Counted from the whole stretch's first letter, positions 2,966 to 46,898 are shown. The stretch: DNA of 63,552 bases, filler included, from Octopus bimaculoides (GCF_001194135.2; 5 parts of 5 records of this genome joined end to end with filler, not necessarily neighbours in it), one strand, 5' to 3'. Numbers and translations: made by a program. The notes: generated by a model from the sequence alone, not told the origin.

Positions 2966-3092
2966 TATATTTTCGAACAGGGAGTCCAGCACGAAGCAAC
3001 ATCTGTGGACCGGTTTCTGGGTTTTTGCTCTTCATCAGCACAGACTAACTGCTTGGCTAGGTGGCGTTGCTGAATTCCCGTTCGAAAATATA
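2966..3092 (-). mobile_element. Hammerhead-containing long-hairpin element, copy 1
   Basis: Imperfect 24-25 bp inverted arms at 2966-2990 and 3069-3092 (TATATTTTCGAAC...). Homologous to 15425-15568 and 46751-46898. Confidence 0.75.
3002..3044 (-). ncRNA. Minimal type I hammerhead ribozyme motif (GUC site)
   Basis: Minus strand reads TCTGTG CTGATGA AGAGCAAAAACCCA GAAA CCG GTC CACAGA. Stem I is 6 bp, the core is intact, stem III is the palindrome ACCGGT, and stem II is decayed. Confidence 0.75.
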
Positions 3093-3277
3093 TAATTTTC
3101 AAAGTGACACACATCACTGATCTAATAAATAGAAACATTATTATTTCTAAGTCTCTCAAAGAAAGATATTCAGTGACAGTTCTTTAAAGTAAGGACTACA
3201 GTAAGATTTTTTTCACGAATGGTTATGGCGGTCCGTTTGAGTAGAACAGGAATAAAAGAGGTTCGTAGGCAAGAAAT

Positions 3278-3292
3278 GGTTGAGAACCACTG
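3278..3292. mobile_element. hAT/Charlie-like terminal repeat remnant
   Basis: GGTTGAGAACCACTG resembles hAT-MITE right termini. No partner end was found. Confidence 0.3.
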
Positions 3293-4829
3293 CTTCACGT
3301 TGATTTAAATCGGTGATGAACCTATGAACGCGCAGCGGGGTTTGAAGTTCCACCCGATGGACTTTGACAAGTGAAAAAAAGAAACTGTGAAAGACTCTTC
3401 CGCGCTATAAAACAATTTACCTAAAAACAATTATATGGAAAAACTTAACATGAATACATAAAAGTGACGCTCCACTAACAGAATTATTAAAGAAATTAAT
3501 AGTTCGACGCACCAGTTTAAAACGTTTGCCATTATTCATCTAAATTTACCGCAGCCAGATTCTATAACCACCCGCTCTCTGTGATGTATCGCATGAGCTG
3601 AAGTTTGTCGAAAATAGATCGGCTGGGGATCGCCTAAGCCTGTGCGCTCTTAAAAATACAATAGACACAAACGTTAACCTGTTTGTGAGCAACCTTGCCA
3701 AAATCTTAAACTCTGCCTTTATCAATGGTAGTCGCCTTGTCGGCGTCCGTTCTCAGCAGGACCACCACTCCTAGACTCATACGACTGAGAATGCTTGCAG
3801 TAGCTCACCCTGTTGTAATAGGCAGCTGCCAAGATCGTGGTGAGCAAGTCTGGTGGGTAACCGTAAAGCTTACAGAGAAGACTACCCAAGCCTGGTGATT
3901 TGTTCGTCGCATAACTGTTCGTCCCACTGTCATAGCTCTCAGCGGGTTTCTGCAGCGTTCCACTTCATGTAGTGAGAACTGCTACAAACTATCGACGTTG
4001 GTTATAATGTTCCCAGGCTTCGCTCTGAGGTGGAAGAGTAATATCTGTTTCGATTCTCTACATTCCGAGTTCAGATCCCTTCAAGGTCAATTTTGAATTT
4101 TTTCCTTTCAGGGTTGATAAAAAGTTCCAATCTAAGATGTGGTGTGCGAGGAATGTCACATTGGATGCTTTGCAGTATTTGTTCTGGCTTTTTTTTTTGT
4201 GTGTGTGTGTTCTGAGTTCAAATCTCGCCATGGCCTACATGCTCGGTAAACTTAACCGTCGGTCACGACGACGAGTATCCCATTTGATCTGATCAACGTG
4301 ACTGCTTACTCATGAAATTTGATTCTTTGTTGGCCACTAAGGGCTACACATAGAGGGACAATACAGGACAGACAAGGCGAGGTCGAATGCAGGCAACAAA
4401 AAGAAATGATTGAATGAATTAACAATAGGTAAAAATTTTAAAGAAAAATTACAATAATATGAGAATAACAAGATGTAGTGTTAGACGTGGAGACCCCCAC
4501 AAGCCACGAGTAACACTTCTATCATAAGTGAGACTTGGGGGTTCGCGCTCAAGTTAGGCACATCCGTACGTAACAGGCGTGCCACTTGCATCCATCTAGT
4601 CAGAAATATGCGCGGCGACAGCGACTCCAGCCTTAGTTTCCTTTTCAGGTGATAGATGTAAATAGTTGGTTAAACTAAACCAGAGAGAAAGTTGTCTGTC
4701 CGCGAACCTTTCACTCGCGTCAACCACACAACCTCTTTCGCCATAGCCACCAAGCAGAGAAAAATTGCCTGCCTTTCCCGGTTAAAGGAAGACGATAGGA
4801 CAATCTTGATAATGGACTCAGTTTACTCC

Positions 4830-5085
4830 TGAAATTAACGTGCAAGTGGCTGAGTACTCCACGGACACACGTACCCTTAATGGAGATCTCAGAGAGATTC
4901 AGCGTGACACAGAATGTGACAAGGTCGGCCCTTTGAATTACAGGTACGACTCATTTTTACCAGCTGAGTGAACCAGAGCAACGTGAAATAAAGTGTTTTG
5001 CTCAAGGATACGAGGCGTCGCTAGGAATCGAACTCATGACCATACGGTCTTGAACCGAATTCCTTTAAACTCTAAACTACGCGCC
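4830..5085 (-). mobile_element. SINE family C, decayed copy
   Basis: GAAATTAACGTGCAAGTGGCTGAGTACTCCAC...CAGCGTGACACAG matches 44777-44880, and a tRNA-like head (GGAATCGAACTC) lies at the right end. Confidence 0.8.
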
Positions 5086-5294
5086 TACATTCACTATGTA
5101 AGCCGTAAGTGTTTTTTTGCCATAGCCCCGGGACCGACTAATGCCTTGGGAGCGAATTTGGTAAATGGAAAGACTGTGTGGAAGTCTGTCACGGCTGTGC
5201 GTGTGTGTGTGTATGCGTAAAAGAGAAACTGGATTAAGATCAGACTGTAAATTCAAACGTCACAAACATCAATCCACTATTAACTGGTTTTCTA

Positions 5295-5376
5295 CTAGCA
5301 CAACCACCAATCCTACTACTACTACTACCACCACCACCACCACGACTACTACTACTACTACTACCACCACCACCGA

Positions 5377-5419
<43 letters not shown>

Positions 5420-5470
5420 GCTGCTGCTGCCACTACTACTACTACTGTTGCTGCTGCCGCTGCTGCCACT
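5295..5470. repeat. Compound trinucleotide microsatellite (ACT/ACC/GCT)n
   Basis: Read directly from the sequence. It produces the poly-Thr, poly-Ala and poly-Val ORFs in the track. Confidence 0.95.
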
Positions 5471-44554: not shown

Positions 44555-44715
44555 ACCTTGTGGTGTGTGACCAATTGAGGCACTTAGTTTTAAATTGATA
44601 TTTTTCTTTTTCTTTCTTTCTTCCTTTTTCTCCCTTTTTCCCATTATTTCTTTCTTTCTTCGCTCATGCTCGTGTTTTCTTCGATTTTGGATTTGTATTT
44701 TAATGTTGTTGTTGT

Positions 44716-45008
44716 TGGCACTCCGTCGCTTACGACGACGAGGGTTCCAGTTGATCCGATCAACGGAACAGACTGCTCGTGAAATTAACGTGCAAGTGGC
44801 TGAGCACTCCACAGACACGTGTAACCTTAACGTAGTTCTCGGGGATATTCAGCGTGACACAGTGTGACAAGGCTGACCCTTTGAATTACAGGCACAACAG
44901 AAACACGAAGTAAGAGTGAGAGAAAGTTGTGGTGAAAGAGTACAGCGGGGTTCACCACCATCCCCTGTCGGAGCCTCGTGGAGCTTTAGGTGTTTTCGCT
45001 CAATAAAC
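44716..45008 (-). mobile_element. SINE family C, well-preserved copy (head lost in the gap)
   Basis: TGGCACTCCGTCGCTTACGACGACGAGGGTTCC...GAAATTAACGTGCAAGTGGCTGAGCACTCC...GCTCAATAAAC. Homologues lie at 4.3, 4.8 and 12.1 kb. Confidence 0.9.
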
Positions 45009-45777
45009 NNNNNNNNNNNNNNNNNNNNNNNNNNNNNNNNNNNNNNNNNNNNNNNNNNNNNNNNNNNNNNNNNNNNNNNNNNNNNNNNNNNNNNNNNNNN
45101 NNNNNNNNNNNNNNNNNNNNNNNNNNNNNNNNNNNNNNNNNNNNNNNNNNNNNNNNNNNNNNNNNNNNNNNNNNNNNNNNNNNNNNNNNNNNNNNNNNNN
45201 NNNNNNNNNNNNNNNNNNNNNNNNNNNNNNNNNNNNNNNNNNNNNNNNNNNNNNNNNNNNNNNNNNNNNNNNNNNNNNNNNNNNNNNNNNNNNNNNNNNN
45301 NNNNNNNNNNNNNNNNNNNNNNNNNNNNNNNNNNNNNNNNNNNNNNNNNNNNNNNNNNNNNNNNNNNNNNNNNNNNNNNNNNNNNNNNNNNNNNNNNNNN
45401 NNNNNNNNNNNNNNNNNNNNNNNNNNNNNNNNNNNNNNNNNNNNNNNNNNNNNNNNNNNNNNNNNNNNNNNNNNNNNNNNNNNNNNNNNNNNNNNNNNNN
45501 NNNNNNNNNNNNNNNNNNNNNNNNNNNNNNNNNNNNNNNNNNNNNNNNNNNNNNNNNNNNNNNNNNNNNNNNNNNNNNNNNNNNNNNNNNNNNNNNNNNN
45601 NNNNNNNNNNNNNNNNNNNNNNNNNNNNNNNNNNNNNNNNNNNNNNNNNNNNNNNNNNNNNNNNNNNNNNNNNNNNNNNNNNNNNNNNNNNNNNNNNNNN
45701 NNNNNNNNNNNNNNNNNNNNNNNNNNNNNNNNNNNNNNNNNNNNNNNNNNNNNNNNNNNNNNNNNNNNNNNNNNNNN

Positions 45778-45822
<45 letters not shown>

Positions 45823-46483
45823 GTATGTATATAAGTAGGTAGGTAAATGGATACATAGGTAAGTAGATTGATAGGTACATAGGTAATACGGATAGACAAG
45901 CACGCGCGCGCACACACACAAAAGGAGAGTGAAACACATGACCACATACATACCCACACACATTCCACACACACGCATACACACAAAGACACATATGGAG
46001 ACACATCCATACATAACAGACGCACGTACATGGTCACACAAACCAATACACATAGACACGTACACACAAGTACGTACACACAAGGAGACAGAGGTACACA
46101 CACAGATAAACTCACACATTCATACATACAAACACATAAATATGCACACACAAACACATGAATGTGCAGAATACATACATACATATATGCATACACACAT
46201 ACATACATATATGCATACACACATACATACATATATACATACATACATACATATGTGCATACACATGAACACTGACGCACACACATGCTCACAGACAAAT
46301 AAAGAACGCAGCTCTAATTACGGACAGATTCAACATCCACTGACAAGGCTGCAAAAGCAACGAACATTTTGGAAGAATGGAAATCGAACCGGTGAGTGTG
46401 TTAGATAATAAGGCATTATGACAATATGACTCTCCCCAGACACAACATATTTTAATGTAGTTTTGTATTATATACGTATTATA

Positions 46484-46640
46484 GGCGTGACTGTGTGGTA
46501 AGAAGCTTGCTTCCCAACCAGATGGTTCCGGGTTTAATCCCACTGTGTGGCACGTTGGGCAAGTGTCTTCTACTATAACCTGGGCCAACCAAATCCTTGT
46601 AATTGGATTTAGTATATGGAAACTGAAAGAAGATCGTCGT
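46484..46640 (+). mobile_element. SINE family A head
   Basis: GGCGTGACTGTGTGGTAAGAAGCTTGCTTCCCAACC...GGTTCCGGGTTTAATCCC...GGCACGTTGGGCAAGTGTCTTCTACT. Confidence 0.9.
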
Positions 46641-46750
46641 GTGTGTATATATAATATAATATAATATAATATAATATAATATAATATAATATATATATAT
46701 TAGAAATTTTTAATTTTGGTAGCCAGTGAATATATTTCACTGTGATTATA

Positions 46751-46898
46751 TATGTTTGCGAGAGGTTGACAGACTTCTTCAACCAGCTGGTCATGCTACT
46801 TCAGGCTGATGACGAGCAAAGACTCAGAAACATGTCCCTGAATGCTGGCTAGGCTGGGTGGAGGAGTTTGTCTCCCCCTCGAAAACATAAGGACACAG
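46751..46898 (+). mobile_element. Hammerhead-containing long-hairpin element, copy 3 (divergent subfamily)
   Basis: 37-bp imperfect inverted arms at 46751-46787 and 46853-46889, and the same 3' tail GAAAACATAAGGACACAG as copies 1 and 2. Confidence 0.75.
46800..46842 (+). ncRNA. Minimal type I hammerhead ribozyme motif (GUC site)
   Basis: TTCAGG CTGATGA C GAG CAAAGA CTC A GAAA CAT GTC CCTGAA. Stem I is 6 bp, the core is intact, stem II is GAG/CTC, and stem III is the palindrome ACATGT. Confidence 0.8.

What the first reader, a model, noticed from the sequence alone, without database searches (positions are those of the whole stretch)
2966..46898. A dispersed family of short hairpin elements, each carrying a minimal hammerhead ribozyme in its loop
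Seen in sequence: three copies (2966-3092 minus, 15425-15578 plus, 46751-46898 plus) share one layout. It runs 5' arm, then a 43-nt stem I-CUGAUGA-stem II-GAAA-palindromic stem III-NUH-stem I unit, then the complementary 3' arm, then the tail GAAAA(T/C)ATAAGGACA(C/A)AG. Pairing is kept while sequence changes: stem I is TCTGTG/CACAGA or TTCAGG/CCTGAA, stem III is ACCGGT, ATCGCGAT or ACATGT, and the outer arms of copy 3 differ from copies 1 and 2 but still pair. Established: minimal type I hammerheads with palindromic stem III occur in Penelope-like pseudo-LTRs and non-LTR retrozymes and can work as dimers. Inference: this is a non-autonomous ribozyme-bearing element. Homology continues past the 3' arm, which argues against a plain MITE, and I do not know of this hairpin-caged arrangement being described.
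Basis: partly seen in the sequence, partly recalled or inferred. Interest (0 to 1): 0.85.

Follow-up and report, generated by a model that had tools for sequence, protein, structure and literature searches.

The report
Dispersed hammerhead retrozyme copies, 335-base unit
Three scattered copies of a roughly 335-base non-coding repeat, each with a hammerhead self-cutting RNA motif at the tip of a long stem, belong to a high-copy family that also occurs joined head to tail in DNA and RNA, so this is likely a new member of the known animal 'retrozyme' parasites rather than a new kind of element.

Summary
The three elements are real and not chance: the hammerhead descriptor finds 3 in the window and 0 in 100 shuffles, and the stems covary (15 of 46 pairs changed on both sides). 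Two readings need correcting. (1) The hairpin is not a cage or a pair of element ends: it is a 39-50-pair extension of hammerhead helix I that leaves the core free. (2) The element is larger than the reported 127-154 nt. Reads laid on copy 1 define a unit of about 335 nt (2860-3198) whose end joins its own start in DNA contigs and in 53 and 65 RNA reads of two runs. The ribozyme is the canonical animal type I form with a one-pair palindromic helix III, as in axolotl HHR_Amex1, not the Penelope minimal form. Copy 2 has a changed core. All this fits dispersed monomers of a non-LTR retrozyme, likely moved by a Penelope-like element; a remnant of one lies in this window. Cleavage and circularity were not shown, and the RNA reads over the cut site mostly carry a dead triplet. 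New member of a known kind.

The parts
2860..3198 (-). Copy 1: one full unit (339 nt) of the repeat family
   Evidence: Family depth rises inside this span and falls to locus-only level (about 42) at 2826-2846 and 3204-3224; joints 3192->2860 and 3198->2868
2816..2864 (-). 49-nt repeat of unit positions 3171-3123 (86% alike): start of a second unit or Penelope-type tail, making copy 1 longer than one unit
   Evidence: score reached by 0.5% of 2000 control pairs; 3123-3171 lies inside the family-covered unit, so it is not a host target duplication
3002..3044 (-). Copy 1 type I hammerhead, intact core; predicted cut after 3008 (GUC)
   Evidence: Rfam HH9 28.9 bits, E 1.9e-5, below gathering 52
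2963..3092 (-). Copy 1 long stem (helix I plus extension, 39 predicted pairs)
15394..15669 (+). Copy 2: shorter-than-unit copy (276 nt), flanked by a 16-nt direct repeat (15378-15393 / 15670-15685, 15 of 16 alike), a possible target-site duplication
   Evidence: (control 4.8%, weak)
15476..15518 (+). Copy 2 hammerhead with U4 changed to C, shortened helix II, 8-nt palindrome, AUA triplet; predicted cut after 15512; likely impaired
   Evidence: no Rfam hammerhead hit
46701..46994 (+). Copy 3: 294-nt copy of a diverged subfamily (52-61% alike to copies 1 and 2) between TA-rich microsatellites
46800..46842 (+). Copy 3 type I hammerhead, intact core; predicted cut after 46836 (GUC)
   Evidence: no Rfam hammerhead hit
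46881..46898 (+). Conserved 18-nt motif at the foot of the long stem (also 15560-15577 and 2974-2957); internal to the unit, not its end
59382..59917 (.). Remnant of a Penelope-like ORF in two abutting pieces on opposite strands; shows that such elements exist in this genome, no sequence link to the repeat shown

Best explanation
The three copies are dispersed members of a high-copy, non-coding repeat of about 335 nt that also occurs joined head to tail, and they are likely dead-end monomer insertions of a non-LTR retrozyme. Shown: the unit length, the head-to-tail joint in DNA and RNA, the hammerhead anatomy, the covarying stem, transcription of family members. Inferred cycle: tandem donor loci are transcribed; two neighbouring hammerheads pair their 6-8-nt palindromes to build a stable helix III and cut at GUC; the released 335-nt monomer begins with the 3' strand and ends with the 5' strand of the long stem, so the stem would clamp the two cut ends together (predicted binding -23 to -44 kcal/mol) for ligation by an RtcB-type ligase or by the ribozyme; the circle, or an uncut multimer, would be reverse-transcribed and inserted by a Penelope-like RT/GIY-YIG protein, giving copies shorter or longer than one unit with the ribozyme intact in the middle. 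A single inserted copy has one hammerhead, cannot release a monomer and decays.
For: (reads and contigs laid on 2700-3300 at 80% likeness): family depth spans about 2860-3198; joints going back 333 and 331 nt with 4 or 6 letters between are in 26+27 reads of RNA run X21 (17 and 21 start places) and 12+53 of X22 (12 and 32); DNA run X1 shows 3192->2860 and four neighbouring go-back joints, and 26 contigs run on from 3192 into sequence matching the unit's other end. 1729 contig records were laid, 1497 of them under 95% alike (this count includes a separate flanking repeat). Ribozyme: 6-bp helix I, looped extension, helix II loop, one-pair helix III with palindromic tetraloop in copies 1 and 3, the anatomy given for HHR_Amex1 in 330-nt axolotl retrozymes that cleave as dimers (PMC7229834). 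Stem: 96.8% of 126 cells paired, 15 of 46 pairs changed on both sides, 4 of 6 in helix I. GC 38-44%, longest Met-started ORF 31-73 aa. Copy ends lie 119-191 nt from the cut site, not at it, as expected from a circular or multimeric template. Copy 1 is one unit plus 49 nt. Solo monomers of retrozyme families are described as common and evenly dispersed (bioRxiv 2026.07.22.740005). A Penelope-like ORF remnant is in the window: 204 relatives; of 13 long ones scanned, 9 carry RT and/or C-terminal GIY-YIG, 2 of them both.
Against: No pile-up of read starts or ends at the cut site 3008/3007 (table 6). The depth dip there is seen in DNA contigs too, so it is not evidence of cutting. Of RNA reads covering 3009, 5 of 8 (X21) and 18 of 23 (X22) have the U of the triplet changed to C, against depth 0 of 1508 in DNA contigs; most RNA reads also carry two changes in the 5' strand of helix II (25 and 24 of 42; 56 and 49 of 62). 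The sampled RNA may therefore be read-through of a few decayed loci. No RNA read is 99% alike to copy 1 (0 of 379, 0 of 529), and the libraries are unstranded, so strand and circularity are unknown. Levels are modest (29 and 44 reads per million, flanking repeat included). The joints show adjacency only; no record spans two complete hammerheads. The base of helix II is a mismatch (A.A or C.A) rather than the usual G-C. Covariation rests on three sequences and a structure derived from them. Only copy 1's subfamily was tested with reads. No shared sequence between the repeat and a Penelope-like element was shown.
Confidence: 0.72

Rival explanations
1. The copies are solo pseudo-LTRs or 5'-truncated 3' ends of an autonomous Penelope-like element; the tandem joints are secondary partial tandems, and no free small circle exists.
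For: Hammerheads sit in pLTRs (PMC4209133); partial tandems, 30-40-nt tails, inverted pieces and microsatellite targets are Penelope traits (PMC8557442 passages); copy 1 has a 49-nt extension, copy 3 sits in TA repeats, an inversion joint 2912/3113 is in 11 and 30 RNA reads; the three copies break near one point of the unit. Retrozymes and pLTRs are reported to be one continuum.
Against: Unit end joins unit start with only 4-6 letters between, leaving no ORF; the best-supported loose end at the unit's upstream edge leads into the unit's other end (456 loose ends were not shown). The hammerhead is canonical, not the minimal form (helix II 7-8 bp, helix I 4-5 bp, no loop contacts) of animal pLTRs.
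Confidence: 0.14
2. A satellite-like relic: the hammerhead was once active, but the family now spreads or persists by DNA-level processes and is transcribed only passively.
For: Copies are 52-68% alike; copy 2 core is changed; expressed reads are dominated by triplet- and helix II-damaged variants; no cut ends seen. In Xenopus 8 of 9 tested dimers did not cleave.
Against: Two of three old, diverged copies keep a complete core and compensated stems, which implies selection on RNA structure during amplification; dispersed copies with ragged ends need a mobilisation step.
Confidence: 0.08
3. A SINE-like linear retroposon (as schistosome Sm-alpha is often described; recalled) moved by a LINE, with the hammerhead as passenger.
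For: A B-box-like GTTCGAA lies in the 3' arm of copies 1 and 2; small stem-loop near the 3' end of copies 2 and 3; possible 16-nt target duplication at copy 2; an RT remnant at 62209-62577.
Against: No A box in any copy and no B-box-like word in copy 3; the word is explained by stem pairing; T runs inside; head-to-tail joints and a longer-than-unit copy are not SINE traits.
Confidence: 0.04
4. A MITE or fold-back DNA transposon whose terminal inverted repeats are the arms and which captured a hammerhead.
For: The arms are near-perfect inverted repeats of about 20-45 nt.
Against: Family sequence continues about 100 nt on both sides of the arms; no duplication at the arm ends; the stem is continuous with helix I and keeps G-U pairs (2-5 per copy); units join head to tail.
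Confidence: 0.02

Closest known systems
Metazoan non-LTR retrozymes, above all axolotl Rtz_331 / HHR_Amex1 and newt satellite 2 (Cervera and de la Pena 2020, PMC7229834; parts 2-4 of 6 of the text and passages read; supplement not readable, figures not seen)
   Same: Non-coding unit of about 330 nt, GC under 50%, head-to-tail arrangement, canonical type I hammerhead with one-pair helix III and palindromic tetraloop, self-paired fold with the ribozyme free, Penelope-like elements in the same genome.
   Different: Here the copies seen are dispersed monomers; the paper says most invertebrate hammerheads have a stable helix III, while this one is of the amphibian kind (host taxon not established by any search); base of helix II is a purine mismatch; helix I extends to 39-50 pairs (not comparable with the unseen figures); cleavage and circles not shown.
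Retrozyme monomers as non-autonomous Penelope derivatives (Li, Clavereau and Pollet 2026, bioRxiv 10.64898/2026.07.22.740005; parts 1-3 of 5 read, supplements closed)
   Same: Solo monomers spread evenly, families of about 300-350 bp, co-occurrence with Penelope-like elements.
   Different: Their 'active' class needs two consecutive units with complete hammerheads, not directly seen here; their 35 genomes are vertebrates, three insects and one coral; no pLTR match was shown for this family.
Minimal hammerheads in Penelope pseudo-LTRs (Cervera and de la Pena 2014, PMC4209133; parts 1-2 of 4 read, 2 of 3 supplement files searched)
   Same: Type I topology, palindrome at helix III, predicted dimer cleavage, dispersed single motifs.
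   Different: Minimal forms have helix II of 7-8 bp, helix I of 4-5 bp, poorly defined loop 1 and G10.1-C11.1; these copies have 6-bp helix I, a looped extension and a short helix II, and no adjoining ORF.
Rfam Hammerhead_HH9 (RF02275)
   Same: Copy 1 matches all 77 model positions, including the helix I bulge and the helix II loop.
   Different: 28.9 bits against a gathering score of 52; helix III is shorter; copies 2 and 3 give no hammerhead hit.

Membership tests
Non-LTR retrozyme | Canonical type I hammerhead with loop 1 / loop 2 elements | tested here: met
   Copies 1 and 3 complete; copy 2 altered at U4 and helix II
Non-LTR retrozyme | Short non-coding unit (150-450 bp), GC under 50% | tested here: met
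   Unit about 335 nt; GC 0.38-0.44, ORFs at most 73 aa
Non-LTR retrozyme | Head-to-tail arrangement of units | tested here: met
   Go-back joints of 331-333 nt in DNA contigs and RNA reads; the three window copies themselves are not in arrays
Non-LTR retrozyme | Two consecutive units with complete hammerheads (Li et al. criterion for active) | tested here: inconclusive
   No record listed spans two cores
Non-LTR retrozyme | Target duplications longer than 4 bp when present | tested here: inconclusive
   Copy 2: 16 nt, reached by 4.8% of controls; copy 1's repeat is internal; copy 3 in microsatellite
Non-LTR retrozyme | Transcribed | tested here: met
   Family reads in both raw RNA runs laid; none 99% alike to copy 1; strand unknown
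Non-LTR retrozyme | Accumulates as circular RNA | tested here: inconclusive
   Joint reads fit circles or transcribed tandems alike; the joint also stands in DNA
Non-LTR retrozyme | Self-cleavage | not testable with these tools
   No end pile-up at the site in fragmented RNA-seq; needs an assay
Non-LTR retrozyme | Penelope-like elements in the same genome | tested here: met
   Remnant at 59382-59917; intact partner not seen
Non-LTR retrozyme | No LTR, PBS or PPT | not tested
   No paired LTR layout seen; PBS and PPT were not searched
Penelope pseudo-LTR with minimal hammerhead | Minimal hammerhead (long helix II, short helix I, no loop contacts) | tested here: not met
   Anatomy against PMC4209133
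Penelope pseudo-LTR with minimal hammerhead | Adjoins an RT + GIY-YIG ORF in some copies | tested here: inconclusive
   None beside the three copies; no genome held
MITE | Inverted repeats at the element ends with a short fixed target duplication | tested here: not met
   Arms are internal; family sequence continues on both sides
Rfam hammerhead families (CL00010) | Gathering score | tested here: not met
   Best 28.9 of 52 bits; none

The most novel reading that the evidence does not exclude
An abundant, still active invertebrate retrozyme lineage with an amphibian-type, dimer-dependent hammerhead in which helix I has grown into a 40-50-pair rod that works as a ligation clamp: it would hold the cut ends together so that circles close (and nicked circles reseal) far better than the 1-3% self-ligation reported for mussel and axolotl retrozymes, and it would let the family spread mostly as dispersed monomers, at SINE-like density (3 copies in 55.6 kb of called sequence here). 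The excess of dead-triplet variants among intact RNA reads would then be survivor bias from real cutting in vivo.
Probability: 0.2. Interest if true: 0.6.

Novelty: new member of a known kind. Interest (0 to 1): 0.36.

Why it matters
It adds a high-copy retrozyme family, apparently from a lineage not covered by the papers read, with several diverged subfamilies in one genome and a Penelope-like remnant close by. That is good material for the open question of which enzyme mobilises animal retrozymes and whether circles are the template. The unusually long helix I gives a direct test of whether end-clamping promotes circularisation. It does not introduce a new class of element or ribozyme.

Tried and rejected
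No whole genome is held, so no genome-wide copy census, covariance model or R-scape test was possible; a model from three sequences was not built. Rfam scan of the whole window gave only microsatellite/hairpin look-alikes (150 of 152 rows shown, no hammerhead). Pattern scans for the core in metagenome and viral contigs: 0 and 0. The 20-nt tail motif gave 8 metagenome loci; all 8 match only the motif and none carries a matching hammerhead: chance. No RNA holder was listed by the run index; raw RNA runs were added by species label. The 49-nt repeat around copy 1 was first read as a target-site duplication and rejected, since it lies inside the family unit. The RNA depth dip at the cut site was rejected as evidence of cleavage, since DNA shows it too. 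The Penelope remnant was missed by Pfam, the word-indexed protein search and the Atlas and found only by exhaustive phmmer; its second piece matched 1 of 2 relatives compared. Paper searches: hammerhead + octopus/retrozyme, hammerhead ribozyme + cephalopod (2 listed, neither about such a family by title or abstract; one was not opened); none listed a description of this family, but Repbase/Dfam and unreadable supplements (PMC7229834, bioRxiv) could hold it. The octopus terms came from a recalled resemblance of the repeat beside copy 3; the host taxon was not tested. Earlier scan notes: nothing by sequence or by the longer word list.
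Full report
What is in the sequence. The window is AT-rich, microsatellite-rich DNA with 7899 N and no long ORF; no genome is held. 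Each has a 43-nt unit of six-pair helix I, catalytic core, helix II region, GAAA, a palindrome, a cleavage triplet and the other strand of helix I, at 3044-3002 (minus), 15476-15518 and 46800-46842. Copies 1 and 3 have the full core and GUC; copy 2 has C at U4, a helix II region 2 nt shorter, an 8-nt palindrome and AUA. AUA is reported in a natural viroid hammerhead (PMC1636495, abstract start only). A descriptor written from these copies finds 3 in the window and 0 in 100 block-shuffled windows. The hairpins fold with z-scores of -4.4, -9.2 and -6.8. On the three-way alignment 96.8% of 126 cells pair and 15 of 46 pairs change on both sides, 4 of 6 in helix I; 0 of 500 shuffles reach this, but the structure was derived from the same three sequences. 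A profile of the three finds no fourth copy.

The ribozyme is canonical, not minimal. Copy 1 aligns to Rfam HH9 over the whole model, including the helix I bulge and the helix II loop, at 28.9 bits, below the gathering score of 52; copies 2 and 3 give no hammerhead hit. PMC4209133 (parts 1-2 read) defines canonical animal hammerheads by helix I of 6 bp, helix II of 4 bp and a 1-2-bp helix III with a palindromic loop that works in dimers, and the Penelope minimal form by a long helix II and short helix I. These copies are of the first kind. PMC7229834 describes axolotl HHR_Amex1 as one pair capped by a palindromic tetraloop with all loop contacts, in 330-nt repeats, cleaving 6% as a monomer and far better as a dimer. 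The palindromes here would give dimer helices of -8.3, -10.1 and -4.6 kcal/mol. One oddity is a mismatch at the base of helix II; the same paper reports a U-U there in HHR_Amex2.

The hairpin is not a cage. The arms continue helix I to 39, 50 and 46 predicted pairs. They raise helix I pairing slightly and never take core bases (at most 0.017). Looped helix I extensions are known for newt (PMC6155905, passage) and proposed for cricket hammerheads (PMC2837043, figure legend), and animal retrozyme circles are described as highly self-paired with the ribozyme free. I could not see figures, so whether a rod this long is unusual is open.

The real unit. One DNA run, two raw RNA runs and one RNA-like contig run were laid on 2700-3300 (4 of 24 runs listed). 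Family depth covers about 2860-3198 and drops to about 42 on either side. 1729 contig records of the DNA run fit, 1497 of them under 95% alike; this includes a separate repeat at both edges. Joints go back 333 nt (3192 to 2860) and 331 nt (3198 to 2868) with 4 or 6 letters between: 26 and 27 reads in X21, 12 and 53 in X22. The DNA run shows the first joint and four neighbouring ones, but not the second, and 26 contigs run on from 3192 into the unit's other end. So the unit is about 335 nt and stands head to tail in DNA. Copy 1 is one unit plus a 49-nt repeat of unit sequence; copies 2 and 3 are 276 and 294 nt. All three carry the cut site intact in the middle, 119-191 nt from their ends, so their template was a circle or an uncut multimer, not a cut linear monomer (inference). 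Copy 2 has a weak 16-nt flanking duplication; copy 3 lies in TA repeats.

Results against activity. No place near 3008/3007 shows many starts or ends. The depth dip there is also in DNA. Reads over the triplet mostly have its U changed to C (5 of 8, 18 of 23; DNA depth 0 of 1508), and most reads carry two helix II changes rare in DNA; partner changes cannot be checked because 167 variant rows were not shown. This may be read-through of a few dead loci, or survival of uncuttable RNAs. No RNA read is 99% alike to copy 1 (0 of 379, 0 of 529). Mates fall equally on both strands, so the strand is unknown. The joint reads cannot tell circles from transcribed tandems. Rates are 29 and 44 reads per million, flanks included. 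Copies 2 and 3 were not tested with reads.

Partner. A 62-aa piece at 59382-59567 (minus) has 204 relatives; 9 of 13 long ones scanned carry RT and/or a C-terminal GIY-YIG domain, 2 both, the Penelope architecture (PMC8557442, passages). The abutting opposite-strand piece matches the N-terminus of one such relative (E 7e-18; no match to the other). So Penelope-like elements exist in this genome; no link in sequence to the repeat was shown.

Mechanism. Most likely (0.72) the retrozyme cycle of PMC7229834: tandem transcription, dimeric cleavage, ligation, reverse transcription of the circle by a Penelope-like enzyme, dispersed insertion. The long stem has a natural role in it: after two cuts the monomer starts with the 3' arm and ends with the 5' arm, so the stem would hold the ends together (-27, -44, -23 kcal/mol). 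That step is inferred. Dispersed monomers are described as common products (bioRxiv 2026.07.22.740005, parts 1-3 read), and in that study 8 of 9 tested dimers did not cleave. Rivals: solo pLTR (0.14), passive relic (0.08), SINE (0.04), MITE (0.02).

Novelty. New member of a known kind. Six paper searches listed no description of this family, but repeat databases and two sets of supplements could not be seen. The host taxon rests on recall and was not tested. An earlier scan note on a 341-nt tandem retrozyme in another animal agrees that such elements turn up often; it is not independent evidence. Interest 0.36.

Noticed in passing
window 59382-59917: Penelope-like ORF remnant in two abutting pieces on opposite strands, an inverted arrangement typical of such insertions.
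   Followed up: yes
window 58945-59133: Long perfect palindrome beside an N gap; fold-back insertion or assembly artefact.
   Followed up: no
window 62209-62577 (+): Reverse-transcriptase fragment (RVT_1, E 9e-4, below cut-off), likely a LINE remnant.
   Followed up: partly
window 2714-2771 and 3251-3294: Copy 1 lies between the two ends of a separate high-copy repeat with inverted CAGTGG ends, MITE-like.
   Followed up: no
window about 46490-46700: A multi-copy SINE-like repeat (further copies near 620-702, 9305-9407, 48429-48506) and its TATAA tail lie directly upstream of copy 3.
   Followed up: no
window 2912 / 3113: Opposite-strand joint in 11 and 30 RNA reads: an expressed family copy with an inverted 5' part.
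   Followed up: no
window 3045 and 3027: Alleles in the helix I bulge and in the helix II loop track each other across runs (85/83%, 38/40%, 6/5%): two subfamilies, the DNA-major one resembling copy 2 and the RNA-major one resembling copy 3's loops. Co-inheritance, not shown covariation.
   Followed up: partly
window 3009: RNA reads across the cut site mostly carry a dead triplet that is absent from the DNA contigs laid.
   Followed up: partly
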